Of a DNA stretch of 64,000 nucleotides, positions 4,609 through 46,200 are shown one piece after another. How positions within the stretch are numbered: the first letter of the stretch is position 1; each line of letters begins with the position of its first letter. The position numbers and the translations under genes were made by a program. Below the pieces are notes generated by a model that saw only the letters and a list, made by a program, of their open reading frames with translations, had not been told where the DNA came from and did no database searches. This DNA is from Isurus oxyrinchus. Taxonomy: Eukaryota. The DNA lies in assembly GCA_026770705.1 (NCBI GenBank), contig JANJGN010000052.1, positions 1,364,001-1,428,000 on the forward strand, in the 5' to 3' direction.

Positions 4609-4857
4609 TCAGTTTCGCTTGAATCTGATCTGTGCGTATTCCGTCTCCTCTTCCTTGTGGACAGTCCCATCACCACTGCGCACCCTGAAGACTTGGGGAT
4701 TGGCGTAGAGAAGGTCGTTGGGATTGTCAGGGTTCCCATGTCCAGCATTGCCTCCCACTGGACCTTCAGAGAGACCCCGGGGAGCTGGGGTCTCCCCCTC
4801 GCTAGTTGTGTCTCTGGTTGTGTTCCGGGGCTCAGTAATCAGCACGTTCTGTTTACC
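4609..4857 (-). CDS. Gene A terminal cytoplasmic exon (LLYANP and TEYAQI motifs)
   Basis: AG acceptor 4859-4858, phase 0, GKQNVLITEP...TEYAQIRFKRN*. Confidence 0.85.
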   Translation of the reverse strand, partial: GKQNVLITEPRNTTRDTTSEGETPAPRGLSEGPVGGNAGHGNPDNPNDLLYANPQVFRVRSGDGTVHKEEETEYAQIRFKRN

Positions 4858-13800: not shown

Positions 13801-16800
13801 TCTGTACACACGAACCTTCCTGCGCTGTCACCTCTCGTGGAGTGTCACCTTTCCACTCTTGTGAAGGTTCATCTGGGGAGAGAAATCTCAATATTTAACA
13901 CTGGATGGTTTGTGGATGCATTATCTATCCAATATTTACAGATGTTGCTGAATTGGGGGATGGTCAATACTGAGGAGGACTGCCACAAATTACAGGAAGA
14001 TATACATTCTGATGAAGAGTCATACAGACTCGAAATGTTTACTCTGTCTTCCTCTCCACAGATACTGTCAGACCTGCTGTGTTTTTGCACAATTTTTTGT
14101 TTTTGTTACAGATTTCCAGCATCTGGAGAATTTTGCCTTTATATTACAGGAAGGTATTAATAAACTTGCAGAATGGGCAGGTCATTGACAAATGAATTTC
14201 TACGTTAAATGGGAGGCATTACATTTTGTTCAGGAAAATGAGAAGCTTGTATCTTACCTCGAAAATAAGAATCTAATTGGGGTAGAGGAACAACGTGATC
14301 TGGGGCAGAAACACAGGAATCACTAACCGTGGGGACACAGGTTAACAAGGGGATTAAACATACAAACTAAACACTCGAGATTATTTCTCCAGGGATTGAA
14401 TTGAAAAGTAGAGAAGTGATGTGAAACTTGTCCTGATCCTCGGTCTGTCTGCACCTGGAGTCACGTGTGCAGTTCCGGTCCCCATATTATATAAAGAATA
14501 TAGAGACACTGGAGAGGGTGGTAAAAAGCTTCACAAGGATGATCTCAGCAATGTGGTAGTGTACCCATTAGTAGGAAAACATAATAATTTTCATAGTGGT
14601 AATTTAATTTATTGTAAGCTAGGAATAGAGGGGTCTTGATANNNNNNNNNNNNNNNNNNNNNNNNNNNNNNNNNNNNNNNNNNNNNNNNNNNNNNNNNNN
14701 NNNNNNNNNNNNNNNNNNNNNNNNNNNNNNNNNNNNNNNNNNNNNNNNNNNNNNNNNNNNNNNNNNNNNNNNNNNNNAAATATGGCTGGGCTGAACGTTT
14801 TGAAGTCTCAGAAAAGAAGCTAAATTTGAAATGTTTAATAGGTAAACATAGCCAGAGTTTTAGAATGGGAGGTGCGAAAGGAGAATTTGCAATTTCTACA
14901 TAGTCCTGAATTTCAATGAGGTGCTTAAATGTTACACCTAGTGAAGAGAGGCTAAGGCAAACAGCGTTTTTATTATTCACAATTTTACTGAGAAACTTGG
15001 TACCATGAAAGATTTCTATTATTGGAAATGTAAAGTCCAATGACATATTGGAACAATGGGGTTTACATTCAGAAAGGGAGAAACATCTCTAAATGAGATT
15101 AGGTTATGTGTAAGGGAAGGCATTGAAAGATCTACAAGTGTGAAATGCCTCTGTGCCCCTAATTGCTGTCTGCAAGAACTGAAGGAAAGAAAATTCACTT
15201 TGAATTTAACTGTTCAGGGTATTGTGTTACTTCCTCTGAGGCTTTTTAAATCTGCTTGTTTTACTGTTGCTTTACCAGAGGAGTAACTGGGAGTCAGATT
15301 AATTAGGGAAGCTAAGAATTAGCATAGCAGTAATTTGTAGAACTGTGTATGTGTTTAAAATTATTTCTTTTACTAATAAATGCTGAATTTAGTTTTGCCA
15401 AAACCCTCTCGACCTGGTGGACTCATTACTACTGAATTCAAGGGGAACAACTCAACATAAAAATACAACTTGCAAAACAGTTGTGGCAGCTGTTCCAAGT
15501 TTACTTTGGGATTTGAGCAGCTCAGCTTTTACCGTCTGCTGTGCCATAACACTATCAGGAGAGGAAGGAGAGTCCGGGCCTGGTTTCTCGTGAACAGAAT
15601 AGATTGAAGAGGTGACCTTGGGGAGGTGGCTACGATTCTGAAATATGCTGACAGAGTCGACGCACAGAGAGAAAGTTTCCCCAGGTGGAGAGGAGGAAAA
15701 GCAGAGGCAGAAATTACCCCCCTCGGGGTGGGGGAGGTGGGGGGGGTGTTGCCTGTGCAGGGTTGGCAGGGGTGGGCGTGAACCCGATTGGTGCCCCCGA
15801 TCGAGGCTGTGCCGCCATTTGACGTGGGCCGGACAGTTCGGGCCCGCCCAGCGTGACGGGTGCCCGGGAGCGTGGGCGGGGGAGGGGAGGGGAGGGGGAT
15901 TCCCTGAGGTGCCTCAGGGAGATGAGCTTCAGGTTTAAGACGCGTCCCCTCATGTGACAGTGCCTCATGAGCTGGGACATGCTCATCAGTTTTGATGGAA
16001 CAATTTTGTGTCATGAAGGAAAACTTCAGGAAAGCTCCTCCGGCCTGCGGATGAGGCTCCATGAAAACTACAAAGGATGCCTGGAGGTGAGACGAGCAGC
16101 CCTGATCCTTGTTTAAATGACTATTTCAATGTCCTTCATGGGCCTTGGACAATTGGGCGTGCAGGCTGCGACCCCCGCTGAACTGACATTCGAAATGATG
16201 CGCAGGGACGTTGGGACATCCGCCCGACATCATTTCACTGTACGCGAGCAGACCCCACCCACACTCACCGAGACAAGAATTCCACCCCCCCCTCCCCCCC
16301 GCCACCCCAGCAGGGACCAGCAAGGTATGAAATCCCAGAGGGAATTCAGGAGGAATTCCTTTCCCCAGGTCTGGGGAGAATGTGCAATTCAGCAATTATC
16401 TCATTGTCTGTGGAGTGATTTGGTGCATGTTTGAGGTGGTGAAAGGCACTATAGGAATGCAAGTCTTTCGTTTGTTGATTTGTCAGACTTTTAAAAAGCA
16501 TTAGGTAGACTGATGGGAGTGGATAACCTGATAACATTGATGGACACAGTCAATACATTTAATCATTGATATTAAAGTGACTGTTAGCGGTTGCTTTAGG
16601 ACTGAACTGGAAGCTATCACCAGGTTATTGAGAATCAGACAGTGTGTTATAATAAGCTGTGTTTTGTGTTAATATGTAAACGTCACAGATTGTGTTATTT
16701 CCCATTGAGTGTTGGATGTGAATTGTTGAGTAATTATAACACAGCACTTACCAGAAACGTGAAGCTGGGTTACAGGGTAATAGTTATGTCTCGGACCATT

Positions 16801-18237
16801 GTCAAATTCTATTCTGAAAAAATAAGGTCCTGCATCTTCCCGTCTGATGTTGTTTATAATCAGGGAACAGTCGCCATCTTTCAGGTCTCCAGACAGCCGG
16901 GTCCGATGGCGGAACCGTGGTAACTCGTGACTGTGATCCTTGGAGTGAAAGGCTATAGACGATGTTCTCCATTCCTCATTATTAAACCAGACTCCATCTC
17001 GTGGCTGAATTTTCAAATCTGTTGGGTAACTGTAATTAAATGGAATCTGTACACAGGAACCTTCCTGCGCTGTCACCTCTCGTGGAGTGTCGCCTTTCCA
17101 CTCTTGTGACAGTCCAACTGGGGAGAGAAATATCAATATTTAACTCTGGATGGTTTGTAGATCCACTAGACTCGATATCCACCCCCTCCATCACTGGGGC
17201 ACAGTGGCTGCAGTGTGGACCATCTACAGGACACACAAGGAACTCCCCAAGGTTTCACAATGGATTGAAGAGATTCCTGGACACAGGAGTGGACAAGTTC
17301 ATTCTACATTGGCTCATGGTCCTCAGGACCCTGTTTAGTGAAGCCAGTCTTCCACCCAACACAGTGTCTACAAGATACACAGGGAAACTGTGTAAACATC
17401 TCATCTCTCTACACTGACTGGTTTGTCTTCGGTTTAACTTTCAGTATTTTTAAATTTCCATATTGTGGTTGCTATGGTGAAACTGTGCAGGAAGTGCGAG
17501 GGCTGGACTCTCTGTCTATTCTGACTGCAGCTGTGATGTAGTCGTGGTGGTTTTCAGTAAAATGAAACCCTCTGAGCTCCTCCATCCCCGAGGTTTAGGG
17601 AGTGAATTCCAGAGCTCAGGCCCCAGGCAGCTGAAGGCCCGGCCGCCAGTATTGGAGTGATGGGAATCGGGGGATGGTCAAGAGGCCGGAATTGGAGTAA
17701 CACAGAGATCTGGGACGTTGGTTGGGAGAGTTGCAGGAGGTGACAGAGATAAAGAGTCAGTTTGTGGCAATGGAGGCATTTCAACACAGTGCTCTGAATT
17801 TTATGTTTGTGATGTTGTAGGACCAGGAGTCAGAAAACACAGGTGTGAACGGAGAATGGAGTTTGGTGTGAGTTTGCACATTGGGTCACTGCTGAATCTG
17901 AACCCAAACAGAGCTCAGTAAGAATCTTAAGATTCTGCTTGAGCTACAACAAACTTGCCTATCTCTGTAACCTCCTCCAGCCCCTACAACCCTCTGAGAT
18001 CTCTGCTCTCCCCCCGTTCTGCTGTCAGACAGGGAGTCAGTGTATATCAGTGAGCACAGGGGTGATGGGTGAATGGGACTTGGTGTGAGTTTGTACACTG
18101 GCTCACTGCTGAATCAGTTCCCAGTCACAGCTCAATAAGAATGATCTTTTACAAAGACTATTAATCATAAATCTGTCCGAGATGACGATGATATTACCTT
18201 GGAGAAGTGACAGGAGGAAGTAAGATTTCCCGATCAT
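4609..18237 (-). CDS. Gene A: Siglec-like (CD33/MAG-related) inhibitory-type receptor, L-V-V-V-C2-C2-TM-cytoplasmic, ~720 aa
   Basis: Exons 18237-18198, 17117-16752, 13872-13504, 11992-11624, 11252-10956, 8489-8196, 6986-6890, 6168-6087, 4857-4609; all GT-AG; total 2163 nt, in frame; Siglec V motifs (GSCVQIPC, D/NCSL, YxFR). Confidence 0.8.
5215..5951 (+). mobile_element. Solo-LTR-like element (TG...CA), related to the 1326-2152 insert
   Basis: Begins TGTTAC, ends GTGTCATAACA; shares blocks with 1326-2152 and 14555-15551; mirrored ~53409-54150; no clear TSD. Confidence 0.45.
6087..6168 (-). CDS. Gene A cytoplasmic exon 1
   Basis: 82 nt, phase 2-0, KRKTAMEERVSGTSDIALTPSPLSVKHQ, AG/GT bounded. 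Confidence 0.75.
6890..6986 (-). CDS. Gene A transmembrane exon (uncharged TM)
   Basis: 97 nt, GRDSSKWTVGLFTAGIMLSVFLAGIFIFICVRK, AG/GTAAGT bounded. Confidence 0.85.
7500..7850. repeat. AT-rich minisatellite (~37-38-bp unit)
   Basis: Repeated ATGTAACATTTATATATAAT core; mirrored at ~51620-51870. Confidence 0.8.
8196..8489 (-). CDS. Gene A membrane-proximal Ig exon (MAG domain-5-like)
   Basis: 294 nt, phase 1-1, YKPEISQQSECTRRSEGVTCICVATSNPPGDLTW...SCSVQNPHG. Confidence 0.85.
8800..9180 (+). repeat. 37-bp minisatellite (ATCTCTGTAACCTCCTCCAGCCCCTACAACCCTCCCT)
   Basis: ~10 tandem units at 37-bp period; also at 40540-41480 and inverted at 50140-50670. Confidence 0.9.
9320..10375 (+). mobile_element. 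Penelope-like retroelement 3' fragment (GIY-YIG endonuclease)
   Basis: ORF 9530-9859 NLIYCLHCSQCGLLYMGQTKHRLGDR..EH, a GIY-YIG signature. Confidence 0.75.
10377..10620 (+). mobile_element. RTE-like LINE 3' fragment
   Basis: MLRISWMDRKTNEWLR resembles the C-terminal part of RTE-clade ORF2; mirrored at ~48700-48940. Confidence 0.45.
10696..10762 (-). pseudogene. Gene A: 3' remnant of the second C2 exon (5' part and acceptor deleted)
   Basis: DYQCVAENEHGAVEGFITITVE plus donor matches 48546-48612; upstream it joins directly to intron sequence homologous to ~44100. Confidence 0.8.
10956..11252 (-). CDS. Gene A first C2-set exon
   Basis: 297 nt, phase 1-1, DFTDKPTIFPAEIIAGKRVDVSCTFNTTCNG...LSCRVRYP. 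Confidence 0.9.
11624..11992 (-). CDS. Gene A V-set exon 3 (internal type, AEPSQEW)
   Basis: 369 nt, phase 1-1, Siglec V motifs, YLFR Arg retained, extra Cys 11892-11894. Confidence 0.9.
13504..13872 (-). CDS. Gene A V-set exon 2 (internal type, DEPSQEW)
   Basis: 369 nt, phase 1-1, YFFR Arg retained, extra Cys 13772-13774. Confidence 0.9.
14555..15551 (+). mobile_element. LTR-like insertion in the gene A V1-V2 intron, spanning an assembly gap
   Basis: Absent from the paralogous intron at ~12670-12685; ends GTGCCATAACA like the other solo-LTR-like copies. Confidence 0.45.
14642..14777. other. Assembly gap (N run)
   Basis: Run of n. Confidence 1.
16752..17117 (-). CDS. Gene A V-set exon 1 (N-terminal type, VGLSQEW)
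   Basis: 366 nt, phase 1-1, completes the signal peptide; YFFR Arg retained; B-strand Cys changed to Phe (17038-17040). Confidence 0.9.
18198..18237 (-). CDS. Gene A leader exon (MIGKSYFLLSLLQ)
   Basis: 40-nt phase-1 exon with GT donor. Confidence 0.85.
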
Positions 18238-18687
18238 TGTCCACTCCCAGATATTCCATCCACTTCTCACTCTCAAACTGTGAAAGAGAAAGGAGTTAAT
18301 GAGACCTCACCTCTTGTCCGACAGCTCTCGAGAGATCAGAACTGCTTTTAAACAATGTCTTCACAGACTAATTTGATTCTCTGTGGGATGATAGGTGCTC
18401 TGCAGAGAGTTACAAGGCTTTAAGAAAGAAAAACAATGAAGGACTTGCATTTCTATAGCACCTTTCACCACCTCAAGACATCCCAAAGCTCATGTCTCTG
18501 CACTTCCCTCATCCCTTGAGCTAGAAAGATGTTCTGTGCAACAGACTTGAGTCTCACACCCAGATCTCAATAACCAGTAGAAATCTTTCAAAGGCATCAA
18601 TCATTGGAATCTGTCTTTATAAAGTCACAACATCAACAAAGGACGGTGTTGGTGGTGGAAGTGAATTCCAATCATTCCGTTACTTAC

Positions 18688-25294: not shown

Positions 25295-25744
25295 GTAAGT
25301 AACGGAACGATTGGAATTCACTTCCACCACCAACACCGTCCTTTGTTGATGTTGTGACTTTATAAAGACAGATTCCAATGATTGATGCCTTTGAAAGATT
25401 TCTACTGATTATTGAGATCTGGGTGTGAGGCTCAAGTCTGTTGTACAGAACATCTTTCTAGCTCAAGGGATGAGGGAACTGCAGAGACATGAGCTTTGGG
25501 ACATCCTGAGATAGTGAAAGATGCTATAGAAATGCAAATCAATCATTGTTTGTCTTACTTAAAGCCTTGTAACTCTCTGCAGAGCACCTATCATCCCACA
25601 GAGAATCAAATTAGTCTGTGAAGACATTGTCTAAAAGCAGTTCTGATCTCTCGAGAGCTGTCGGACAAGAGGTGAGGTCTCATTAACTCCTTTCGCTTTC
25701 ACAGCTTGAGAGTGAGAAGTGGATGGAATATCTGGGAGTGGACG

Positions 25745-28700
25745 ATGGTCGGGAAATCTTACTTCCTCCTGTCACTTCTCCAAGGTAATATCATCATCAG
25801 CTCGGACAGATATATGTTTAACAGTCTTTGTAAAAGATCATTCTTATCTCTTTATCTCTGTAACCTCCTGCAACTCACCCAAACAACTTCCCAGATCTCT
25901 GTGTTACTCCAATTCCGGCCTCTTGACCATCCCTCGATTCCCATCACTCCAATACTGGCGGCCGGGCCTTCAGCTGCCTGGGGCCTGAGCTCTGGAATTC
26001 ACTCGCTAAACCTCGGCGATGGAGGAGCTCAGAGGGTTTCATTTTACTGAGAATCACCACGACAACATCACAGCTGCAGTGAGAATAGACAGAGAGTCCA
26101 GCCCTCACACTTCCTGCACAGTTTCACCATAGCAACCACAATATGGAAATTTAAAAATAACTGAAAGTTAAACTGAAGCTCAAACCAGTCAGTGTAGAGA
26201 GATGAGATGTTTACACAGTTTCCCTGTGTGTCTTGTAGACACTGTGTTGGGTGGAAGACTGGCTTCACTAAACAGGGTCCTGAGGACCATGAGCCAATGT
26301 AGAATGAACTTGTCCACTCCTGTGTCCAGGATTCTCTTCCATCCATTGTGAAACCTTGGGGAGTTCCATGTGTGTCCTGTAGATGGTCCACACTGCAGCC
26401 ACTGTGCCCCAGTGATGGAGGGGGTGGATATCGAGTCTAGTGGATCTACAAACCTTCCAGAGTTAAATATTGACATTTCTCTCTCCAGTTGGACTGTCAC
26501 AAGAGTGGAAAGGCGACACTCCACGAGAGGTGGCAGCGCAGGAAGGTTCCTGTGTACAGATTCCATGTCATTACAGTTAATCATCACATTTCGTAGGGAG
26601 ATCACGTGTCGGAATCTGGTTGAAAGGAATAGATGGGAACCCTACAGCCTAAATGGTCTATAGCCTTTCATTCCGAGGGTCACAGTCACAGGGATCAAAG
26701 ATTCCGCCATCGTACCCGGCTGTCTGGAGACCTGAAAGATGGCGACTGTTCCCTGATTATAAACAACATCAGACAGAAAGATGCAGGACCTTATTTTTTT
26801 CAGAATAGAATTTGACAGCAGGAATAGTTAAAGCTACTATCCTGTAACCCAGCTTCACGTTTCTGGTAAGTGCTGTGTTATAATTACTCACCAATTCACA
26901 TTCAACACTCAATGGGAAATAACACAAACTGTGACATTTACATATTAACACAAAACACAGTTTATTATAACACACTGTCTGATTCTCAATAACCTGGTGA
27001 TAGCTTCCAGTTCAGTCCTAAAGCAACCTCTAATACTCACTTTAATATCAATGATGAAAAGCATTAACTGTATTATCAGGTTATCCATTCCCATCAATCT
27101 CTCCTGTCCTGTTTAAAAGTCTGACGTATCGATAAAAGAAAGATGTGCATTTCTGCAGCGCAATTTACCACCTCAGGAGGATCCAAATCCCTTCACAGCC
27201 AATGAAATTATTCCTGAATTGTAGTCACAGATGTTAAACACAGCAGGCAGTTTGTGCACAGCAAGATCCAACAAACCACAAGGTGATAAATCACCCAGAT
27301 CACTGAGGAAATGAGAGGCCAGTGAACCCTAACCTCTGGTCTGATGAAGAGTCATACGGACTCGAAACGTTAACCCTGGCTTCCTCTCCACTGATACTGT
27401 CAGATCTGCTGGGCCTTTCCAGCAATTTTTGTTTTTGTTTCAGATTTCCAGCATCCACAGTATTCTGCTTTTAACTCCAATCTCTGGTCTGAGCCTCTTC
27501 TCTCATCCAGTGTTCTCAATTCACATGTCTCGGAGTGAACGTGTATTAAGCTGAGAGACAGAAACACTACTGCCAAAGAGCAAGAAAATCTTTCCTGATC
27601 ATTGTAACCTCTCAGTTCTGATATCATCCTTGTAAAAGTGCTTTCTCTTGTGGGACTGTGATTTCTATTTGAACTGATGCTTCACGTTATATTTCTCTAA
27701 AAGGATCCATTCTCTGTCTGTTAGAATTCACAGATAAACCCATGATATTCCCTGCTGAAATTATTGCAGGAAAGCGTGTGGATGTAAGCTGCACCTTCAA
27801 TACAACGTGCAATGGAACAGCAGCACCTGTCTTAACCTGGGACACTCCCACTGACGTACCTGGATCAGTCTCAAACACTGTAACTCAGCATGGTGTCACT
27901 CTGACCTATACTTCTGTTCTGACCCTGATCCCATCACTCAAACACCACGGACACAATCTCAGCTGCAGAGTGAGATATCCATCTGTTTCATCGGAGCGGA
28001 CCCTTGTACTAACTGTGCAAGGTAAGTACGGACACCCTTCATTCTACATCAGCACTCCCTCAGTGCTGACCCTCTGACAGTGCAGCCCGTTCTCAGTATC
28101 CACATTCTCATGCCTCTCAAAGTGCTTCACAGTCGATAGAAGTTAATTGATCTTTATTTGATTATTGCTGAATGAAGAGACAAGCTGTCTAAACTTTACA
28201 TCTCGCACACACCATTCTCCATGGCAACACCGCCACCTATCAGAGACCACTTGCCAACCAATCAGCACTCTCTTCCCATTAAGTATAAATTGTTGTTCAC
28301 TTTCTGTCGGTAATCCTGTGAACGGGGTTCTTGATTCCCTCCCTGACATCTTAATGTCCCAATGAACAGAACAAGTTCCAACAATGAGCTGTGGTTTGTG
28401 ATTCCTCACGTTACATCCAGGGACACTGGAGACTATCAGTGTGTGGCAGAGAATGAACATGGAGCAGTGGAGGGATTCATAACCATCACTGTGGAACGTG
28501 AGTGTACACAGACTTCAACATCTCTCTCAGATTCGAACACTACACAAACACCCTCAAACATACACATCTAAGTAGACACATGCAGACACACATATATGAC
28601 CACACAGAAAGACACACTCACACACAAACACACTAACACACACTCCCCTGTGGGCTACCTGACCTCCCTCAGTACTGCCCTGGAGAGTTGGCCTGAATTC

Positions 28701-30300
28701 TGGGATTTGTGTTCCCATTCATATTTATGCAAGAATATGGAAATTACAAAGTCTATTACAGACACTCAGATGCATAGAGACATTCACAGATACTCTCTGC
28801 CTCTCCAACTCTCTCTCTCCCTTTAAGAAGCTTCCTGAAAGCTCACCCTTCGAACAATCACCGGTCCCAAATCCTCCTTATCTGATTTGTGTGATTTTCT
28901 TTGTGTATTTGAGAGTAAGAGAGAGGTGGAGAGGTTTAGGAGGAGAATTCCTGTTGGTGAAAAGCTTACATCATGTTCTCACCTTTCCAGTGCCCATATT
29001 TCACATGATGTCCAATGTCCTTGTTCATAATGGGGATTGCCTATGTAAACGTCACACTGTAGTTACAGCCTCCCACCAGTGGTGGCATTGTAGCCCTTAA
29101 TCCTTGTGTTTCCCAGCTTTTCAAGCAACTCCACTTCCCAGTTTGCTACACAAGCTGTGAGTTCATTGGAATTCAATTATTTCTCAAACGGTAGATTTGA
29201 TGTCATTTTATTGAAAACTTCCTCAGCGCCTCCCTGAAGGGTTTACACTCTCTGGGAAGCAGGAATAGGCTGGATGTTGGGGAGTTCATCTTTTCCCAGA
29301 GAGTAGGGATCCTCGGCAATGTGTTGTCAGTGGGTGTGGTGGTTGCTGATTCTCTGTCGCCTTCAAGAGGGATCTGGAGTCGTTACTGACTGGGGGAGAG
29401 ATCATGGAAACGGAGAATGATACAGCACAGGAGGAGGCCATTCAGTCCATTGTGCCTGTGCCAGGTCTTTCAATGTTCTATCCAATCAGATCCACTAACC
29501 ACCACTCCACTTTGCCCCCATCTTCCTACTTTAAGTATTTATCCAATTTCCCTTTTGAAAGTTCCTATTGAATCTGCTTCCACCGCCCTTTCAGGCAGCA
29601 CCTTCCAGATCACAACTCGCTCTGTCAAAACAAATTCTCCTCATCTCCCCCTCCGGTTCGTCAATCTGTGTCCCTCTGGTTACCGAGCCTCCTGCCCCTT
29701 AAATACATCGATACTGTTCACCTCAACCACTCCCTGTGGGAGCGAGTTCCACATTCTCCCCTCTCTCTGGGTAAAGATTGGAACTGTTTATTAAGCGGGG
29801 GGTGTAAGTCCGTGGGGGAGTCCATCTCGATCCTGCCCGATTCGCACACACGTCCGAGATGAATTTCCACCCTGCACAAAACGTTTCCAGAATTTTCTAC
29901 AGCACAATCCTGTACACAGCGATGGAGAGAAACATTGGACAGGGAGTCCAACAGCACAATGATCCATTCTCACCAATGTTCCACGCTAAGGGGAAAGTTC
30001 CGATTGTCCACTCTTCGAGTGTTTACAATGAAAACATTCATTCCACATTGAATCCCAATATTACAGCAAATGTTGCAGTGATATGAAGCTTGATTGTTCA
30101 GCCAGAGTGAGAGATTGAAAGCGGAGAGTCAGTGATGATTTCTTTCTGTGTGTTCTCTAGACAGTGGAGGAGAGATTCTGCACGTGATCCTGATCCTGGG
30201 AATACGAGCTGTGATATTCCTTGTGGCTGTGGTTATCACTATCGCTGGAGTCTGTGTCTGGGAGAGACAAACAGTGAAAGGAAGTCGACAGACTGTTTGA
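25745..30300 (+). pseudogene. Gene C: Siglec-like activating-type pseudogene, L-V(psi)-C2-C2(truncated)-TM(Arg)
   Basis: Leader 25745-25784; V 26489-26865 with TAA at 26578-26580, two frameshifts and a second stop; C2 27725-28021 intact; C2b remnant ~28345-28497; TM/terminal exon 30161-30300. Confidence 0.8.
30161..30300 (+). CDS. Gene C transmembrane/terminal exon with intramembrane Arg and short tail
   Basis: Pyrimidine tract and AG at 30159-30160; phase 1; SGGEILHVILILGIRAVIFLVAVVITIAGVCVWERQTVKGSRQTV*; Arg codon 30205-30207. Confidence 0.75.
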
Positions 30301-33420: not shown

Positions 33421-33651
33421 CCCTCCGTAATGATAACAGGGATCGTTGAAATGTATCATAAGGCCAGAGACCTGTATTGGGGACGCTATCGCCTGAGTTT
33501 CAGCCTCCGAGGTGAGGAGGAGGAGTCTAATCCCACGGAGCCAATGGAGAAGCTTCATGACTACAGCTGCCCAAATATGAGCTGACAGATCATCACATGG
33601 TAAACGTTTTGCTGAGAGCACAAAACATCCTCGATCTTCTCACTGGTTACC

Positions 33652-33792
33652 CACTTCCTCATTTTGTCTCACAGTGACACATCCACCCTTTCTAATTAAA
33701 CACACAGAGGGAGCAGCACAGGAAGAGGTCATTCAGCCCAAGCAGAGCATGTGGGCAGTTCCTCCCCAGGCGAGCAGTCGGACAGGTCCTGG
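33652..33792 (+). promoter_or_regulatory. Gene B promoter / non-coding exon 1
   Basis: CACTTCCTCATTTTG PU.1-like site 33652-33666; donor GTAAGT at 33793. Confidence 0.55.
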
Positions 33793-34242: not shown

Positions 34243-34282
34243 ATGATCGGGAAATCCTACTTCCTCCTGTCACTTCTCCAAG
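34243..34282 (+). CDS. Gene B leader exon (MIGKSYFLLSLLQ)
   Basis: ATG 34243, GT at 34283; acceptor AG ends at 34200. Confidence 0.85.
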
Positions 34283-37200
34283 GTAATAACATCGTCAGCT
34301 CGGACAGTTTATGGCTAATAGTCTTTGTAAAAGATCATTCTTATTGAGTGTGATTGGGAACAGATTCAGCAGTGATCCAGTGTACAAACTCAAACCAAGT
34401 CCCATTCACCCATCACCCCTGTGCTCACTGATATACACTGACTCCCTGTCTGACAGCAGAATTGGAGGAGAGCAGAGATCACAGAGGGTTTTATGGTTGG
34501 AGGTGGTTACAGGGATTGGGAGTGTAGAGGGGGGATGGTGGGGTAAGAAATCGATGATGAGAATTTGAAATTTGAGTCATTGCTGGACTGGGAGCCAGTG
34601 TAGTTCAGCCAGTGACAGGGGAGCGATCGGCTGAATAGAGAATCAGGAACACCAACTGGGGGATGAGGTCTATCCTGATGCTGGGACTCGGATAACAATA
34701 CCCTGAAATTTTGTGTCTTTTGCTGATTTTGTCAGAATTTCCCATGAAGACAACACAGCAGCTCCTAGAATAGACAGGCTGTTCAGTGTCACACTTCCTG
34801 TCCATTCTCACCTTGCTAGATACTTCAATAAGGGAGCAAGATAACTGAAAGAGAGAAGGAAGGTAAAGCTGTCTCTGTGTAAAACTGTCAAATATTATGA
34901 GTTATCATGATTGTCTCTGATCTGCTGCAGAGTTTAAAGTTCTCAGAACATTAGCACTTTGCAGCTCAGAGAGAGACCATTGACTCACTGCCTGAAAGGC
35001 CGGTGGAAGCAGATTCAACAGGAACTTTCAGAAGGGGAACTGGATAAATACTTGAAGGGGACATTTTGCAGGGCTGTGGAGGAGAGAGCAGAGGTTAGAG
35101 TGGGACTAATTGGGCAGATCTTTCAAAGGCCCAGCACAGGCTCGATGGGCCAAATGGCATCCTTCTGTTCCGGATCATTCCACAATCTGATAAATTAAGC
35201 CCCAGATCAGTAACTCTTCAGGCTCCTGCTGCAGGGATGGATCTTTGAGAAGGACAGGGAACAAGAGGTTCCTGGTATCATTTTCATATTTCTTGACAAT
35301 TACATAAGTGTATAGATCTGTTGAATATTTGAGTCTCTAAAGCGTAGAGGTAATCTGCTGTTATGTCGAGATCTTGTGGTGGCAAAATTGTCTGGAGGTT
35401 TCTTTAATTGCTCACATTGATCTGTGGGATTGTCATTCTTTGATGTTGTCCCTGGTTTCAATTGACATTACACCCTTGATGCAATTGAGGAGGCTTTAAA
35501 CTAATATAGCAGGGGATGGGATCCCGAGAGGAGGTTCAACAGAGAGAGATGCACAGCCAAAATTAGAAGGGAGCAAATGAACCTGGAAGGCATAGAAATT
35601 ATTGGCCATTTAAGGCTCAAGATAGCGTGGTAAAGTTGGATTGTATTAATTTTAATGCAAGGAGTCTGACAGACTTGCATTCTCCTGCAGGTGTAATGTT
35701 GCTGCTCCCTTGAAACTGCCAATATTGTTGAATCTTTCTGCATATTTCAATGTTATGTTATGAACTGAGTTTATGGGATAGTTTCTGAGACTGGGACAGA
35801 CATAAATCCATTGGCTTTCGGCCGGACCGGACAATCTTGGAAGTGGGCGGGGCCAGAAAATCCCACCCCTATGGGAACATTTTCAGTTTATTTGATGTGC
35901 CCAGAGAGATCAATAAAGACCACAATCCACAATTTATTGGCAAGCCACATCAGGATATGTGTGAGAGGTGGAATATCGATCACCGCTCCTAGTCTCGTCG
36001 TATACATCATCGCCATTTCCTGGTTTGTCAGTCACCACATTTATATGTTCCTGATGGGATAGCGGATGGTCATTCTTATTGCTTGAAGGTTCCCCGTTGT
36101 GTAGGGTCTGTTTGGATCAGTGCACATCTCTTTGTAGCTGCATCAGCCTTTGCTCTAGTGCGCTGCCGCTGTCAATGGCCCTTTCTGCCACAAGCCTTGC
36201 AGGATTGGTGGAAAGCTGGGCATTTCCTTGGTGCCTGCAGAAGGCCCCACCTTCCACACGTCTCACTAGGTTTGGATGTTCTAGTGAGTGTGTCAACAAT
36301 TGATGTTGTACTGAGGACCTGTAAGCTTCGTTGACCTGCGAGGATCACTTCGTATTTATGTCCATCCTTGAGTAACTCTTCAATGCTATAGGTTTTGGTC
36401 TTATCTAGCAGATCTTTCTGGAAGGCTTCCATGGGAGTGGATGTGATCACCAACTCAACAACTCTGTCTGCAGACTCTGTGTTTGAAATCACAGTGCGTA
36501 CCCTTTTCTCTACATTGGCTGATGAAGTGGTCTATGGATTGTGTAGGCTGATGAAATGACATAAACTCTAGTTGATGAATATGGAGTTTAACCTGATTCT
36601 GAACCTGTCTTCCAATGTCGTCCATATCTATTGGGGATCCTTTCGCTCTTCTGCTGTTAATCCTGACGTGTTCAGCCTGTGTAGACCTTCATTCCCAATC
36701 GCGAGGTGAATTTTTATGGCTTGTTGGTCTGGTTCACTCACACCTGAATCAGGAAACCAGAGCTCTGTCCGCTGTTTAAACATTCTGAATTCAGATAGTC
36801 GGTCAGCTACATCCCAGTTCAAACTGGGGAATTTAGTGGACATTCTGACAATATCAGAACAGATATACAAGGATATAAAGCTGGGAGACACCTGCAGCCA
36901 AACTGTGTGAGCTGTGTTCTGCTCACAGGCCAAAGTGAAACTTGGACTGGATGGTGTTACCATCCCAGCTGTGGTTACTACTGGGCAAGTCAGATCCCAG
37001 TGTGGAACTCAGCTTGACAGGTCCTAACTTTTATTTTTTATTTAGGAATGTGGAGTGCAGCTACTGAACAGAGTCACAGGAGTCATCTGATGAACTTCTA
37101 ACAAAAGAATAAAACATTTATTAAACTAGGAAAGACAAACTATATGACATTACTCATTCACCCAGACCTATACCTTTACAGATTCATAAGTAGAACACAA

Positions 37201-40200
37201 GTTACAATAACTATCTTATACTCTCATGTTCACACTAAGTACACAGTCGATGTAAACCAATAGACGACCTGTGGTCAGGGACACCACATTCTGAAAGCAA
37301 GTGGCAGAGCCCACTTGAACCAAATTCTATGTCTCATCTGTCCCCAGACGCTTGTTGCACTGTGAGCCAACCAGTCTCACTGAAAAGCTTCTTTCATATG
37401 AGGGTTTCCAATCTCCACTCTCCAAGAACTCACTTTGGAATCTTCTCCAACATGACACTTTCACTCAGGCACCTTCCACAAGGGTCCACTTTCACTATTT
37501 CAAACTCTCCTTCCCATGTTCCTGCCCCCTGGATCGCCACGTGCATTCAGCCTTCCTTCCACGCCCTGTCTCTCCAATGCTCAGCCGTGTCAATGGAACA
37601 CCATGGCTTCACATGGCCGTAGTAATGAGTCACCAACCTGTGGTGTCTCCTAGGATCTTCTGGCTTCTCACAAGCCTATTTTGCTTTAGGCCTGTGTCCT
37701 GCTGCTTTCTCCCTTTATGCTTGAAGCCTTCTTCTGCTCCTCACTCTTAACTTCACTTAACAGGGCCTTTTCCAGATTTGACTAGAAGGTTTTCTTGGGC
37801 CCTTTCTCCTGTTCCACTCGATAGTTTTGGCTTCTTCTTTACTTTGGGACTGACTATCTGTCCCGCTCCTTTGCTGCTTCTCCTGGCAACTCCTTTCAAC
37901 AGAACTGAAAGTACTTTTCTGTTTTTTTCTGTCTCTGTGGGTCCTTCCCTCTGCATCACTGTTGCTAGGCAACAGCACAGTTTCTTATGCCTTGTATTTG
38001 TTTTGACTTCCCTTCAACAGTCATAAAACCTCAATGGAATGCTGGCTTCTTTTTAACTCAAGTTCCCCCTTTTCTCAACACCCAAATACAGAAATACAAA
38101 CTAAACTTGAACTTAAAGATAGACCTTTTGCCTAACACACACAAATACACATAGAACTTACTTAAGCGAACACCAGTTCCTAAAAATCACATGACACACT
38201 TCCCCTCGAGTGATGTCATGCTGCTGTCCCTGAAAGGCATATTACAACAGTGTTATCACTTGGCAGGTGATGTGTGCCAGGCAGACCAAGTCCCTGAGAG
38301 AAACCTGGTCACACTATCATAATGATTTTGCAATTTGTATTTATTATGAGATGTGTGCACTTAATTCAGAAGCAATAACTCCACCAATACCTTTAGAGAT
38401 TTAAAACAATAAATTAACATATTTGTCATCAAAATAAAAGATTTCAAGCACATACATAATGACAATGACTGCTATCATAACTCCTAAAATTCCTAATTAA
38501 CCTGACTCCCAGTTACAGTCCCTTTAAGGCAACAGACCAAAAATAGATGTTAGATTTAAAACAAAATCAGCAAGTTAACCCAATGCCCCGGACAGTGGAA
38601 TTCCAAATGCATTGTCCCCAACTTCAGTTCTGTTGGAGAGCAGGCTTGTGCACAAACAGGGTCCTGAGGACCATGAACCAATGTAGAATGAACTTTTCCG
38701 CTTTTGTGTCCAGGATTCTCTTCCATCTGGTGTGATACCTTGTGGAGTTCATTGTGTGTCCTGTAGATGCTCCACACTGCAGCCACTGTGCCCCAGTGAT
38801 GGAGGGGGTGGATATTGAGTCTAGTGGATCAACAAAACATCCAGAGTTAAATATTGATATTTCTCTCCCCAGTTGGATTGTCACAAGAGTGGAAAGGTGA
38901 CACTCCACGAGAGGTGACAGCGCAGGAAGGTTCGTGTGTACAGATTCCATGTCATTACAGTTATCCATCAGATTTGGTAAAGAAACCACAGGTCGGAATC
39001 TGGAAAATGAGAAGATACATACAGAACAAATGGTCTAAATGGTCTATAGCCTTTCACTCCAAGGGTCACAGTCGCGAGTTATCACAGTTCCACCATCGGA
39101 CCCGGCTGTCTGGAGACCTGAAAGATGGCGACTGTTCCCTGATTATAAACAACATCAGACGGGAAGATGCAGGATCTTATTTTTTCACGATAAAATTTGG
39201 CAATGGTCCGAGACATAACGTTTCCCCTGAAACCCAGCTTCACGTTTCTGGTAAGTGCTGTGTTATAATTACTCACCAATTCACATCCAACACTCAATGG
39301 GAAATAATAGTGTTTGATTTGCTTGTTTTTTGGCCGTGTTAACCAGCGTCACTATTTTTAATGATTTGTCTATTTCTGCTCCCAGATCCATGAGCTTATT
39401 GTGTGTGATTGAATCCACATCATAGCTGTAACGTAAACCGAGCTGAGGGGTGATGACACCTCCCCCCTGAGTGAAGTGTCTCCTCCCCACTACACCTTCC
39501 ACCCCTCACACTGTCCGTGTAAACCCCCGTCCCATCTCCAGCCTCTCTTTCCCCTCCAAAGTCCTTGAACGTGTTTCCATCTCCCGAATCCGGTTCCATC
39601 TTTCCCGGAACTCCATGTTTGAATCCCTCCAATCAGGTTCCCACCCCAGCCACTGTGCTGAAACAGCTCTTATCAAGGTCACAAATGGCATCCTGTGTGA
39701 CTGTGACAAAGGTCAACTTTCCCTCCTCGTCCTTCTCGATCTGTCTGCAGCCTTTGACACGCTCGACCACACCATCCTCCTCCAACCCCTCTCCACTGTC
39801 GTCCAGCTGGGTGGGACTGCTCTCCCCTGGCTCCATTCTTATCCATCTCATCGTAGCCAGAGAATCACTTGCAATGGCTTTGCAGCATCATCTGAACAGT
39901 ATTAGTTTTCACCTGTCCACTGAGGATCCCCAGCTCTACCTCACCACCACCTCTCTCGACTCCTCCACTGCTGCTAAATTATCAGGCTGCTTATCCGACA
40001 TCCAGTACTGGATGGGCAGAAATTCCCTCCAATTAAATATTGGAAAGACTGAAGCCATTGTCTTCATTCCTCGATCCAAACTCTGTTCCCTCGCTACCAA
40101 CTCCATTCCTCTCCCTGGCAGCTCTCTGAGATTGAAGCCAATCTGTTCACAGCTTTGTTGTCCCATTTGATCCTGAGATGAGCTTCCGGCCTCATATCTG

Positions 40201-43200
40201 CGCCCTCACTAACACTGTCTATTTCCACCTCCATAACGTCGTACGACTTCACCCTGTCTCAGCTCATCTGCTGCTGAAACCCTCATCCACGCCTTCATTA
40301 CCTCCAGACTCGACTGTTCCAACACATGCTCTACACTCCATAAACTTGAGGCCATCCAAAACTGCTGACCACGTCCTTACTCACACCAAGTCCCGTTCCC
40401 TTATCACCCGCTCTGCTCGATGACCGAGACTGGCTCCTGGTCAAGCAAAGTCTCAATGTCCAAATTTTTGAATATTTTTCCTCCCTATTACAGTAATCTC
40501 CTCCTTTATCTTCATCCACGGCAACATTCCCTATCGCAGGAGCCTCCTCCAGTCCCTACAACCCTCTCTATCTCAGGAGCCTCCTCCAGTCCCTACAACC
40601 CTCCCTATCTCAGGAGCCTCCTCCAGTCCCTACAACCCTCCCTATCTCAGGAGACTCCTCCAGTCCCTACAACCCTCCTATCTCAGTACTCTCTTCCAAT
40701 CCCGAAAACCATTCCTATCACTGCAAACTCCTCCGGACCCAACACCCCTCCCTATCTCTTTAACCTCCTCAAGCCCCGATAACCCTCGCGATATTTGTAG
40801 CCTCCTCCAGTCCTAACAACCTCCACTATCTCTGCAAACTCCTCCAGACCGAATACCTCTCCCTATCTCTGTAAGCTGGTCCATCTCTTACAACCCTTCA
40901 TATTTCTGTAACCTCCTCCAGCCCACTACAACCCTCCCTATCTCTGTAACCTCCTCCAGTCCCTAAGAGTTTCCTTCATCTCTGTAACTCCTCCAGCCAT
41001 TATAACCCTCCCTATCTCTGTAGCCTCCCTCAGCCCCAGCCACACTCCATATCTATGTAACCTCGTCCTGCCCCTACAACCCTCCCTATCTCTGTAACCC
41101 CATCCTGCCCCAAAAACTCCCCCATCTCTGTAAACTCCTCCAGTCCCTGCAACCTTCCCTACCTCTGAAACCTCCACCAGCCTTTCCAACCCTCCCTACC
41201 TCTGCAATCCGTCCAGCCCCTACAACTCTTCCTATCCCTGTAAACTCCTCCTGCCCCTAAAACCGTCTCTGCCCTTGCAGCCTCCTCCAGTCCCTTCACG
41301 TTCCCCATCTCCATAAACTCCTCAAATCCCTATAGCCCTCCCTATCTCTGCAACCTCCTCCAGGTCCTACCACCCTCCCTATCTGCGTAACCTCCTCCAG
41401 TATCTACAGCCCTCCCTATCTCTGTTACCTCCTCCAGCCCCCACAAACCTCCCTATCTGTGTAACCTCCTCCAGCCCCTGATGGAAGGTGGGTCGAGCGG
41501 GTCAGTCACTTGCATGTTTATTCTGCAGCTTTAATATTTTAAGAAGGTAAGAATGTAGGAACATAAGAAATAGGGACAGGAGCAGGCCATTCGGCCCCTC
41601 CAGCCTGCTCTCACTGATCTGGTTGCGGCCTTAACTCCATTTTCCTGCCTGTCCCCCAAACCCTTGACTCCCTTGTCGATCAAAAACCTGCCTCACTCAG
41701 CCTTGAGTCTATTCAATGGCCCAGCCTCCACTGCTCTCTGGGGAAGAGAATTCCACAGGCTAGCGCCCCTCTGAGAGAGGAAATTCCTCCTCATCTCAGT
41801 CTTAGATGGGAGAGCCCTCATTCCGAAACTGTGCTCCCTGGTTCTAGATTCCCCCACGAGGGGGAAACATCCTCCCAGCATCCACCCTGTCAAGCCCCCT
41901 CGGAATCGGATATGTTTCAATAAGGTCACCCCTCATTCTTCTAAACTCCAATGGATACAGGCCCAACCTGCTCACCATTTCCTCACAGGACAAACCCTTT
42001 AATCCCAGGAATCAGCCCAGTGAACCTCCTCTGAACTGCCTCCAATGCAACTCTATCCCTCCCTAAGTAAGGAGACCAGAACTGTACACACTGCTCCTGA
42101 TACAATCTCACCAACGCCCTGTGCAGCTGCTGCAAGACTTCCCTCCTTTTATACCCCATCCCTTTGCAATAAAGGCCAACATTCCACTTGCCTTCCTCAT
42201 TCCGTGGTGTTCCTGAATGCTGACTTTCTGTGATTCATGTACAAGGACACCCAGATCCCTCTGTACTGCATTCTGCAGCCTGTCTCCATTTAAATAATAT
42301 CCTGTTTTTCTATTCTTCCTGCCAAAATAATTTGTTGCCATTCTCCTCAGTATTGACCATCCCCCCAATTCAGCCTCATCAGTAAATTTTGAGTCTAGTG
42401 GATCCACAAACCATCCAGAGTTAAATATTGAGATTTCTCTCCCCAGATAAACCCTCACAAGAGTGGAAAGGTGACAGTCCACGAGAGGTGACAGCACAGG
42501 AAGGTTCGTGTGTACAGATTCCATGTCATTACAGTTATCCATTGTGTCCGGAAAACCAACCGCGAGGTGGAGTCTGGTTTAATAATGAGAAACAGATTCC
42601 CTGGGCTCCCATTGCCTTTCACTCCAAGGATCACAGTCACGAGTTACCACGGTTCCACCATCGGACCCGGCTGTCTGGAGACCTGAAAGATGGCGACTGT
42701 TCCCTGATTATAAACAACATCAGACGGGAAGATGCAGGACCTTATTTTTTCAGAATAGAATTTGACAATGGTCCGAGCCATAACTATTACCCTGTAACCC
42801 AGCTTCACGTTTCTGGTAAGTGCTGTGTTATAATTACTCACCAATTCACATTCAACACTCAATGGGAAATAACACAAACTGTGACGTTTACATATTAACA
42901 CAAAACACAGCTAATTATAACACGCTGTCTGATTCTCAATAACCTGGTGATAGCTTCCAGTTCAGTCCTAAAACAACCTCTAATACTCTCTTTAATATCA
43001 ATGATTAAATGTATTGACTGTGTCCATCAGTGTTATCAGGTTATCCACTTACATCAATCTCCCTAATCCTGTTTAAAATTCTTACATATCAACAAAAGAA
43101 AGATTTGCATTTCTATAGCGCCTTTCACCACCTCTGGACATCGCAAATGGATTCACAACCATTGAAATAATTCTTGAAATGTAGCCCTTGTTGTAATATA

Positions 43201-46200
43201 GGAAACACAGCAGCCAATTTGTGCACAGGAAGCTCCCAGAAACAGCAATGTGATCAATAACCTGATCATCTGCTTTAAATGCCGGTTCAGTGATTGGTTC
43301 AAATGGATTCTCTCCTGCTGGGAACTGGATAGAATTTAAATCTGGCAGATTTCGGAGAAAGTAACAAGCCAGTGTGTCAGGAACTGTGAGCTGATCCCCC
43401 ACCCTCACCCGGGATTGTCAATTCAATTGTCTCAAAGTGGAAGTGAATTCATCTGAGTGACAGAAACTCCACTAAGTCTGAAAATAGGAAAGTCTCTCCT
43501 GATCGTTGTAATCTCTCAGTTCTGATATCATCCTTGTAAAAGTGCTTTTTCTTGTGGGACTGTGATTTCTATTTGAACTGATGCTTCACGTTATATTTCT
43601 CTAAAAGGATCCATTCTCTGTCTGTTAGATTTCACAGATAAACCCATGATATTCCCTGCTGAAATTATTGCAGGGAAGCGTGTGGATGTAAGCTGCACCT
43701 TCAACACAACGTGCAATGGAACAGCAGCACCTGTCTTAACCTGGGACACTCCCACTGACGTACCTGGATCAGTCTCAAACACTGTAACTCAGCATGGTGT
43801 CACTCTGACCTATACTTCTGTTCTGACCCTGATCCCATCACTCAAACACCACGGACACACTCTCAGCTGCAGAGTGAGATATCCATCTGTTTCATCGGAG
43901 CGGACCCTCGTATTAACTGTACAAGGTAAGTACTGAAACCCTTGATTCTATATTAGCTGTAATAGGTTACAATGTGCAGAGCAAGATCCCACAAACATCA
44001 CTGGGTTGAAGACAAAACAGGTCCTTTTTTATTAGCGATATTGACCAGGGAGAGCTCTTCCTGTATTGAGCCTTGGGATTGTTTATGCCTACCTGATAGG
44101 GCAGAGGGGGCCAATGTTGAACTTAAAAGACAATATAGGATAATATAAATATTGTCTTCATTGATGTCAAAGATTTTGGGGGAGATGTAGTATAAAAGTT
44201 TAATATTAACAATGTAAATAGATAGTATTTATCATCAGTTACTCAAGGTCACATGAGAATAGAACACGGAGAGAGATAGTTCTATAGATACCTAGGTACA
44301 TAGAAACTAGGAGCAGGATTAGGACATTCAGCCCTTCAAGCCTTCTCCGCCATTCAATATGATCATGGCTGACCCTCTATCTCAAAGCCTTATTCCCGCT
44401 TTCTCTCCGTACCCTTTGATGCCCCTAATATCAAAATATTTATCAGTTTCTTTCTTGAATACACTCAGTGACCCGGCCTCCACAGCCTCTGTGATGGAGA
44501 ATTCCACAGATTGACCACCCTCTGAGTGAAGAAATGTTTCCCTATCTCAGTCCAAAATGGCCTGCCCTGTATCCTGAGATTGTGGCTCTTGGTTTTAGAC
44601 TCCCCAACCAAGGGATGCATCCTCCCTCCATCCAGTCTGTCTATCTCTGTTAGAATTTCTTACGTTTATTCAGGTCTCCTCTCATTCTTCTAAACTCTAG
44701 TGAATACAGACCCAGTCGTACCAATTCTCCTCATACGACAGTCCTGCCTCCCCTGGTATCAGCCTAGAGAACCTTCTCTGCACTCTCTCGACGGCAAGTC
44801 TATCCTTTTTTAGGGAGGGAGACCAAAACGGCACGTAGTACCCCATGTGCAGTCTCACCAAGACCTTGTATAACTGCAGTAAGACATCCCTACTCCTGAA
44901 CACAAATCCTCTTGCAATGAAGGACAACATACCATTTGCCTTCCGAATTACTTGCTGCACCTGCCTGTTTACTTTCATTGGCTAGTGCACAAGGACACCC
45001 AGATCCCTTTATACATCCACATTTCCCATTATATCACCATTTAAATAATACTCTGCCTTTCTGTTTTTCACACCAAAGCCTACAATGTCACATTCATCCA
45101 CATCATCTGCCATGTGTTTGCCCACACACACAACTTGTCTAAATCGCCTTGAAGCCTCTTTACATCCTCCTCACAGCTCACACCCTTACCCAGCGTTGTG
45201 TCATCAGAAAACCTGGAAATATTGCACTTGGCTCCTTCACCCAAGTCATTTAAATATATCGTGAATAGTTAGGTCCCAAGCACGGATCGCTGTGGTACAC
45301 CACTAGTCACCGCCTGCCACTCAGATAAAGACTAATTTATTCTGACCCTCTGTTTCCTGTCTGTCGACCAATTCTCAATCCATGCCAGTAAATTACCCCC
45401 AATCCCATGGGCTTTAATGTTGCGCACTAGCCTCATGTAGGACCTTATCAAAAGCCTTCTTGAAATCTAAAAACACCACATCCACTGGTTATCCCTTATC
45501 TATTCCACAAGTTACATCCTCAAAATCTCCAGTAGATTAGTTAAGCATGATTTTCCTTTCATTAACCCATGCTGACTTTGTCTAATCCCATTAATGCTTT
45601 CCAAGCGTTCCGTTAGCACACCTTATATAATAGGCTCTAGCGTTTTCCCCATGTTAGACTAACTGGTCTGTAATTCTCTGATTTTTCTCTCCCTTCTATT
45701 TTAAATAGTGGAGTTACAATTGCCACCCTCGAATCTATAGGAACTGCTCCAGAGCCTATAGAATTTTGGAGGATGACCACCAGTGCTTCCAATATTTCCA
45801 GGGTCACTTCCGTTAGTCTCCGGGATGTAGATTTTCAGGCCCTGGGGACTGTTCAACCTTTAACCCATTAATTTCTCCAGCTCCATTTTTTAAAACTAAT
45901 CCTGATTATCTTCAATTCCTCCCTCTCACTAGACACTTGGTTCCCTAACATTCCTGGGAAATTATTTGTGTCCTCTTTTGTGAAGACAGAACCAAAATAT
46001 ATGTTCAGTTCTTCTGCCATTTCTTTGTTTCTCATTAGAATTTCCCCCATTTCTGACTGCAAGGAACCTACATCGGTCACTGCTAATCTTTCTCTCTTCA
46101 CATATTTATAGAAGCTTTTACAGTTGGTTTTTACGTTCCCTGCAAGTTTAATCCCATGTTCCATTTTCCCCTTCTTGATCAATCTTTTTGTCCACTTTTG

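What the first reader, a model, noticed from the sequence alone, without database searches (positions are those of the whole stretch)
30161..30300. Hidden activating-type TM exon with intramembrane arginine, not in the ORF track
Seen: after a clean pyrimidine tract and AG, a phase-1 exon reads SGGEILHVILILGIRAVIFLVAVVITIAGVCVWERQTVKGSRQTV*, with Arg at 30205-30207 inside the hydrophobic stretch. Its phase matches the upstream C2 donors. It shows no resemblance to the TM exon of A and B. The resulting V-C2-C2-TM(R) layout parallels human Siglec-14. Adaptor coupling is an inference.
Basis: partly seen in the sequence, partly recalled or inferred. Interest (0 to 1): 0.75.

Follow-up and report, generated by a model that had tools for sequence, protein, structure and literature searches.

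The report
Shark activating-receptor membrane exon, on pseudogene
This is a real, conserved shark exon for a membrane anchor with a buried arginine, the kind that lets immune receptors switch cells on through a partner protein; several shark receptor families share it, but the copy here sits on a broken gene.

Summary
The exon is real: AG at 30159-60, Arg codon 30205-07, stop 30298-300. It is single-copy in the window. It forms the C-terminus of 34 predicted Ig receptors, and is internal in one more, from eight shark species in three orders; Arg is kept in 35 of 35. The V-C2-C2-TM(R) layout is wrong here. The V exon has two stops and two frameshifts, and the second C2 lacks its acceptor and first 129 nt, so this gene is a pseudogene. 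Intact paralogs join the first C2 straight to the exon (12 of 12). The first C2 is 97-98% identical to that of neighbouring genes with uncharged TMs and tyrosine motifs, a paired-receptor pattern. The same exon also caps CD22-like and SLAM-like receptors, the latter on other chromosome-scale records. This resembles the tetrapod NxxR-TM module, but NxxR is absent. The outer-leaflet Arg favours FcRgamma over DAP12; this is inferred, not tested. New variant of a known kind.

The parts
30139..30160 (+). Polypyrimidine tract and AG splice acceptor
   Evidence: Sequence; junction residue D/N/Y in 28 of 30 homologous models
30161..30300 (+). Terminal phase-1 exon: short stalk, TM helix with Arg, 12-residue tail without Tyr, stop
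   Evidence: 76-96% identical to the matching C-terminal stretch of the 9 shark receptor models; further homologs
30205..30207 (+). Arg codon CGA; 7 apolar residues before it, 18 after it
   Evidence: Arg in 35 of 35 exon-bearing proteins
25745..25784 (+). Signal-peptide exon of the host gene (intact, phase-1 donor)
26489..26865 (+). Broken Siglec V-set exon (two nonsense codons, two frameshifts)
27725..28021 (+). First C2-set exon, intact, phase-1 donor; the donor type that intact paralogs join to the TM exon
28345..28497 (+). 3' remnant of a second C2 exon (153 of 282 nt, acceptor missing)
34243..54755 (+). Inhibitory-type paralog: signal, V (38873-39250), V (42447-42815), C2 (43629-43925), C2 (48331-48612), C2 (50977-51270), uncharged TM (52373-52469), two tail exons (53193-53274, 54507-54755) ending in a TxYxxI motif
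   Evidence: exon phases compatible; transcript not shown
4600..18240 (-). Second inhibitory-type paralog (approximate ends): three V exons, C2, truncated C2, C2, same uncharged TM (from 6986) and tail

Best explanation
The segment is the last coding exon of the activating-type arm of a shark paired-receptor system. In intact paralogs a Siglec-like V domain (sialic-acid-binding Arg kept) and one C2 domain are spliced to it. It supplies a TM helix with an Arg in the outer third and a tail too short to signal. The receptor would pair that Arg with the acidic TM residues of an ITAM adaptor dimer and signal activation, opposing neighbours that have almost the same ectodomain but an uncharged TM and tyrosine motifs. 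My split on the adaptor is FcRgamma/CD3zeta type about 0.55, DAP12 0.25, DAP10 0.05, none 0.15. The exon behaves as a portable module: homologous copies cap Siglec-like, CD22-like and SLAM-like ectodomains in galeoid sharks. The copy in this window belongs to a pseudogene. Shown: exon, conservation, layouts of predicted proteins, gene lesions, sharing across families. Inferred: splicing in vivo, adaptor binding, activation, direction and mechanism of exon transfer.
For: Homologs: 9 of 79 candidates, 18 true of 19 hits among 7999 scored candidates, 9 true of 10 hits in 1.84 billion representatives. Arg in 35 of 35 exon-bearing proteins among 58 examined. The tail is 15 residues or fewer and has no Tyr in 34 of 35; the exception is a model with the exon internal. 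In 21 distinct versions, positions -4 to +1 around the Arg are invariant. Siglec identity: the best solved-structure match of an intact paralog is CD33 (E 1.9e-26), with the F-strand Arg and the V-domain cysteines aligned. Pairing: first C2 exon 290/297 and 289/297 identical to the two inhibitory-type genes. Sharing: TM 20/27 identical between a Siglec-like and a SLAM-like model whose ectodomains barely align (28/108, score 44), and 26/27 between a Siglec-like and a CD22-like model. 4 of 23 SLAM-like relatives carry the exon and a short tail, while others carry uncharged TMs with TxYxxI tails. SLAM-like and Siglec-like carriers lie on different large records in two species. Adaptor rule: Arg in the N-terminal TM segment goes with FcRgamma, central Lys with DAP12 (PMC1440944, passages).
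Against: No transcript or binding data. All homologs are predicted gene models, one flagged low quality. A shark FcRgamma or DAP12 was not retrieved, and the listings of the paper searches showed nothing on them. Eighteen apolar residues follow the Arg, nearly enough to span the bilayer alone, so the Arg could sit at the surface. Siglec-14 signals through DAP12 (PMC13358205) and, as I recall, uses an Arg. Homologs were found with Arg-containing queries, so the invariance has some ascertainment bias. The SLAM label rests on source names (21 of 23 hits) and tail motifs; the solved-structure search ranked CEA/CEACAM1 first and CD2 weakly. The TM tree had no well-supported branch (0 of 12 starred).
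Confidence: 0.7

Rival explanations
1. It couples to DAP12, as the activating mammalian Siglecs do.
For: Activating Siglec-14, -15 and -16 all use DAP12 (PMC13358205, PMC6288428, passages). In this copy the Arg is the 8th residue of the apolar run, near the position 9 given for DAP12 partners (PMC1440944).
Against: In 11 of 12 white-shark-type paralogs and all 4 SLAM-like carriers a polar residue five places upstream makes the Arg the 5th TM residue. Lys-to-Arg cut KIR-DAP12 assembly to 15% (PMC1440944).
Confidence: 0.25
2. The Arg only marks the outer membrane boundary; these are non-signalling decoy or uptake receptors with no adaptor.
For: 18 apolar residues follow the Arg. Some skate SLAM-like models have an Arg at the very edge of a different TM.
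Against: 4-7 apolar residues precede the Arg in 16 of 16 rows shown. The Arg and its flanks are invariant across three orders and three ectodomain families, while the ectodomains diverge.
Confidence: 0.15
3. This very copy is functional, either through a V-skipping transcript (signal-C2-TM is in frame, 477 nt) or because the V lesions are assembly errors.
For: Signal, first C2 and TM exons and their splice sites are intact, and their lengths sum to a multiple of three. One lesion lies in a T run.
Against: Four separate lesions, two of them point nonsense changes, plus a truncated second C2. None of the 33 exon-bearing models compared has this copy's exact TM sequence. A V-less product could not bind sialic acid.
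Confidence: 0.1
4. Sharing across receptor families is an artefact of gene predictors joining an orphan TM exon to whichever Ig exons lie upstream.
For: Some models are clearly irregular: P0032 has the exon internal, P0031 has inserted non-Ig sequence, P0030 has an altered junction. CD22-like and Siglec-like carriers share one record in the bamboo shark.
Against: SLAM-like carriers occur in four species and have their own diverged TM version. They lie on different records from Siglec-like carriers in two species. The CD22-like junction recurs in two genera.
Confidence: 0.12

Closest known systems
NxxR-motif TM exon of tetrapod FcRgamma-coupled receptors (LILRA, NCR1/NKp46, GPVI, FcalphaR, OSCAR; Xenopus FCRL and CD2/SLAM families)
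   Same: One conserved Arg-bearing TM exon reused by several Ig receptor families, including SLAM; Arg near the N-terminus; acidic residue at the C-end; short tail (PMC2413239, PMC4536121, PMC6557307, passages).
   Different: No Asn at Arg-3 (Leu in 21 of 21) and no DYT motif. Here it is also attached to Siglec-like and CD22-like ectodomains. FcRgamma binding was shown for Xenopus XFL, but is untested here.
Siglec-5/Siglec-14 and Siglec-11/Siglec-16 paired receptors
   Same: Near-identical ectodomains with opposite TM/tail modules; activating members often inactivated (null alleles frequent in humans, PMC6288428).
   Different: Intact white-shark-type members are V-C2-TM or V-V-C2-TM. There is no special sequence affinity to Siglec-5 (CD33 96 bits, MAG 89, Siglec-5 86). 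The mammalian activating members use DAP12. Orthology is not indicated; convergence is more likely (inference).
Siglec-15
   Same: Two-domain V-C2 Siglec with a basic TM residue and adaptor signalling (layout recalled; DAP12 link).
   Different: Much weaker match (38 bits against 96 for CD33); uses Lys (recalled); a conserved single gene, not an expanded paired family.
RefSeq shark models named CD33-like or Siglec-11/12/13/14/16-like (e.g. XP_041038478.1, XP_041037190.1, XP_038669862.1, XP_072325011.1)
   Same: They already end in this exon.
   Different: The names shown are likeness labels and say nothing of the Arg or of activating function; this window's copy is on a broken gene.

Membership tests
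Siglec family | N-terminal V-set domain followed by C2-set domain(s), type I TM | tested here: met
   Pfam V-set/Ig_CD22 and C2-set_2 on window exons and on P0011. Met for the family; this gene's own V exon is broken.
Siglec family | Essential Arg on the V-domain F strand | tested here: met
   Aligns with CD33; present in 5 of 6 open V exons in the window and in every V of the 12 white-shark-type carriers; out of frame in the pseudogene.
Siglec family | Unusual cysteine pattern (B-E strand and V-C2 disulfides; pattern recalled) | tested here: met
   The V and C2 cysteines of P0011 align with those of CD33; bonds not modelled.
Siglec family | Sialic-acid-dependent binding | not testable with these tools
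   Needs a glycan array.
Siglec-14 | V-C2-C2 ectodomain on an Arg TM (layout recalled) | tested here: not met
   Second C2 truncated here; 12 of 12 white-shark-type carriers lack it. A second-type C2 does precede the exon in 4 models from other sharks (P0005, P0025, P0026, P0032).
Siglec-14 | Specific relationship to Siglec-5 | tested here: inconclusive
   CD33, MAG and Siglec-5 score 86-96 bits, with no preference for Siglec-5; no family tree was built.
Siglec-14 | DAP12 association | not testable with these tools
   No shark adaptor sequence was in hand.
NxxR-TM module | Asn three residues before the Arg | tested here: not met
   Leu in 21 of 21 distinct versions.
NxxR-TM module | DYT motif at the exon start | tested here: not met
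   Absent from all rows printed.
NxxR-TM module | Arg in the N-terminal TM segment and an acidic residue at the C-end | tested here: met
   Arg is 5th or 8th in the apolar run; Glu at Arg+19 in 19 of 21.
NxxR-TM module | FcRgamma association | not testable with these tools
   Needs co-expression.
Paired immune receptors | Near-identical ectodomain shared with a counterpart bearing an uncharged TM and tyrosine motifs | tested here: met
   First C2 97.3-97.6% identical; V 78-85%; counterpart tail ends in TxYxxI, and its upstream Tyr is not a canonical ITIM.
Paired immune receptors | Opposite signalling outcomes | not testable with these tools
   Needs reporter assays.
High-copy repeat | Multiple dispersed copies unlinked to Ig exons | tested here: not met
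   One copy in 64 kb; every true protein hit is an Ig receptor. Genome-wide DNA copy number was not checked.

The most novel reading that the evidence does not exclude
Galeoid sharks evolved their own portable activating TM exon, separate from the tetrapod NxxR exon. It was copied between unlinked Siglec, CD22-like and SLAM-like clusters before the three orders split, and it wires Siglec-like lectins to FcRgamma rather than DAP12. That would be a second, independent origin of a plug-in activation module and an activating Siglec type with a different adaptor.
Probability: 0.4. Interest if true: 0.65.

Novelty: new variant of a known kind. Interest (0 to 1): 0.45.

Why it matters
It points to activating/inhibitory Siglec-like pairs in cartilaginous fish, far older than the mammalian pairs in lineage terms and probably of separate origin. 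It also repeats, with a different sequence, the pattern seen in Xenopus, where one Arg TM exon serves several receptor families. The exon is a ready marker for counting activating receptors in shark genomes, and it makes the adaptor question testable with one co-expression experiment. Limits: the principle is well known, public models already include the exon, and this copy is on a pseudogene.

Tried and rejected
Repeat origin: rejected (protein hits). A second copy downstream of the other genes in the window: none found by blastn or tblastn; the last gene runs off the window end. Use of the second C2 remnant: its acceptor and first 129 nt are replaced by sequence with no other match in the window. 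Supply of a V domain from another exon: the V exons upstream in the window are all on the opposite strand. Pfam gave nothing for the exon. The Atlas look-alike search gave only scores under 0.8, uninformative. The TM tree had no starred branch; the SLAM group (89/87) and the carpet-shark group (93/97) are only suggestive. Hits P0034 (E 3.1) and P0036 (repetitive, 10 stretches) were dropped as spurious before counts. No carrier was found outside the three galeoid orders, although horn shark, squalomorph, ray and chimaera SLAM-like models were in the collection; this is weak evidence of absence. No structure or complex prediction was run: no shark adaptor sequence was in hand. dN/dS was not possible without paralog DNA. 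Ten paper searches were made. None listed a paper describing shark activating Siglecs or this exon. I saw listings only, and only the top 20 of 52, 304 and 912 papers; subscription papers are not in the library. The whale shark genome paper mentions Siglecs once, in general terms (PMC8455134, passages); its supplements were not read and may bear on this.

Full report
Observation. The sequence is as described. A pyrimidine-rich tract (17 of 20 bases) ends in AG at 30159-30160. The exon starts at 30161, reads 45 codons after two split bases, has CGA at 30205-30207 and stops at 30298-30300. It is single-copy in the window and has no local similarity to the other TM exons. It is the most hydrophobic of 198 acceptor-like phase-1 open stretches, although that scan missed the two inhibitory TM exons.

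The exon is real. A search with the 45 residues returned 9 proteins among 79 candidates, all Ig receptors ending in the exon. The named ones are from Carcharodon carcharias, Scyliorhinus torazame and Chiloscyllium punctatum. A profile added Hemiscyllium ocellatum, S. canicula, Rhincodon typus, C. plagiosum and Mustelus asterias (18 true of 19 hits; 9 true of 10 hits in the index-free search). These eight species fall in Lamniformes, Carcharhiniformes and Orectolobiformes, all Galeoidea (three species looked up, the rest from general knowledge). The closest named relatives are white shark models at 91-96% identity. The residue at the junction is D, N or Y in 28 of 30 readable models, which is what a phase-1 donor base plus AC gives. 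The Arg is present in 35 of 35 exon-bearing proteins among 58 examined. All are predicted models; transcripts were not checked.

The host gene is broken. Upstream on the + strand lie a signal exon (25745-25784), a V exon (26489-26865), a first C2 exon (27725-28021) and a remnant of a second C2 (28345-28497). The V exon is 377 nt against 366-378 nt multiples of three in six paralogs. It carries TAA at 26578 and 26829, a frameshift within 26620-26647 and an extra T at 26794-26800. The second C2 keeps only its last 153 of 282 nt and has no acceptor. All 12 white-shark-type carriers join the first C2 directly to the exon, giving V-C2-TM or V-V-C2-TM. A V-skipping transcript would be in frame but would lack the lectin domain.

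Family and pairing. An intact paralog matches CD33 best among solved structures (E 1.9e-26), then MAG and Siglec-5, with the F-strand Arg and the cysteines aligned; Siglec-15 is far weaker. The window holds two genes with the same ectodomain exons but an uncharged TM and a tail ending in TxYxxI, at about 34.2-54.8 kb (+) and 18.2-4.6 kb (-). Their first C2 exons are 97.6% and 97.3% identical to that of the Arg-TM gene. Similar ectodomains with opposite TM and tail modules define paired receptors (PMC13358205 and PMC6288428, passages; PMC8198044, passages).

In carpet sharks it caps CD22-like, sialoadhesin-like and Siglec-like ectodomains almost unchanged (26 of 27 TM positions identical between a Siglec-like and a CD22-like model). 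It also caps a SLAM-like receptor in four species. Four of 23 SLAM-like relatives carry it with a short tail, while others have uncharged TMs, several with TxYxxI tails. A Siglec-like and a SLAM-like carrier share 20 of 27 TM positions, although their ectodomains barely align. In S. canicula and H. ocellatum the SLAM-like and Siglec-like carriers sit on different chromosome-scale records, which argues against local mis-joining. Against this: some models are irregular (P0030, P0031, P0032), one is flagged low quality, and the SLAM label comes from source names and tail motifs, since the solved-structure search ranked CEA first. The TM tree is unresolved.

Mechanism. The tail has no tyrosine and at most 15 residues in 34 of 35 carriers, so any signal needs an adaptor (inference from established receptor biology). 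The Arg has 18 apolar residues after it and 4 or 7 before it in 15 of the 16 rows shown (20 after in the other), so it lies in the outer third of the helix. PMC1440944 (passages) reports that FcRgamma partners carry Arg in the N-terminal segment and DAP12 partners a central Lys, and that swapping the residue sharply cuts assembly. I therefore favour an FcRgamma/CD3zeta-type adaptor (about 0.55) over DAP12 (0.25), DAP10 (0.05) or none (0.15). Siglec-14 is the counter-example: DAP12 coupling is stated, while its TM Arg and three-domain layout are recalled (one search found no paper). Shark adaptors were not retrieved, and binding is untested.

Comparison and novelty. The nearest known system is the NxxR TM exon, which is used by LRC receptors and by Xenopus FCRL and SLAM families and promotes FcRgamma association (PMC2413239, PMC4536121, PMC6557307, passages). 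The shark exon works like it in layout and reuse but fails membership: Leu, not Asn, at Arg-3 in 21 of 21 versions, and no DYT motif. It is like Siglec-14 in role but not in layout, and orthology is not indicated. Ten literature searches listed no description of shark activating Siglecs or of this exon, within the limits of the library and of the listings I saw; no supplements were read. From recall only, paired activating receptors of another family (MDIR) are described in skates, and a subscription review covers Siglec evolution in fishes.

Verdict. A real and strongly conserved activating-type TM exon, already present in public gene models, here attached to a pseudogene. Its interest lies in the family it marks and in its reuse across shark Siglec-like, CD22-like and SLAM-like receptors. 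New variant of a known kind; interest 0.45.

Noticed in passing
window 1-7772 and 51620-59359: Inverted duplication at 96% identity, covering the inhibitory TM and tail exons and the next gene's signal exon; the cluster is built of recent copies in both orientations.
   Followed up: partly
window 38873-39250: The first V exon of the + strand inhibitory gene has Thr in place of the essential Arg; the second V keeps it.
   Followed up: no
window 16752-17117 (-): This V exon has lost the conserved B-strand cysteine (2 Cys against 3-4 in the others).
   Followed up: no
window 10688-10762 (-): The second C2 exon is also 5'-truncated in the - strand inhibitory gene, at a different breakpoint; this exon has been lost twice in the cluster.
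   Followed up: partly
window 54507-54755: The membrane-proximal tyrosine of the inhibitory tail has Pro at +3, so it is not a canonical ITIM; only the distal TxYxxI fits a switch motif.
   Followed up: no
proteins P0054, P0055, P0057: Two skate SLAM-like models and one unnamed near relative have different TMs with an Arg at the outer edge, two of them with short tails; possibly a separate activating type in rays and skates.
   Followed up: no
window 24552-24635, 25211-25333, 33661-33831, 58607-58690, 18649-18819, 669-752: Segments upstream of each signal exon match the C-terminal part of model P0020; probably a mis-joined model, possibly a further tail exon.
   Followed up: no
window 19040-21250, 24710-24930, 31740-33430: Long 33-bp-period minisatellite arrays recur upstream of the genes (period read from the offsets); they could promote conversion or rearrangement.
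   Followed up: no
window 14642-14777 and 47662-47915: Two assembly gaps (runs of N), each inside one of the inhibitory-type genes.
   Followed up: no
window 31378: First AATAAA after the stop codon, about 1.1 kb downstream; possible polyadenylation signal, untested.
   Followed up: no
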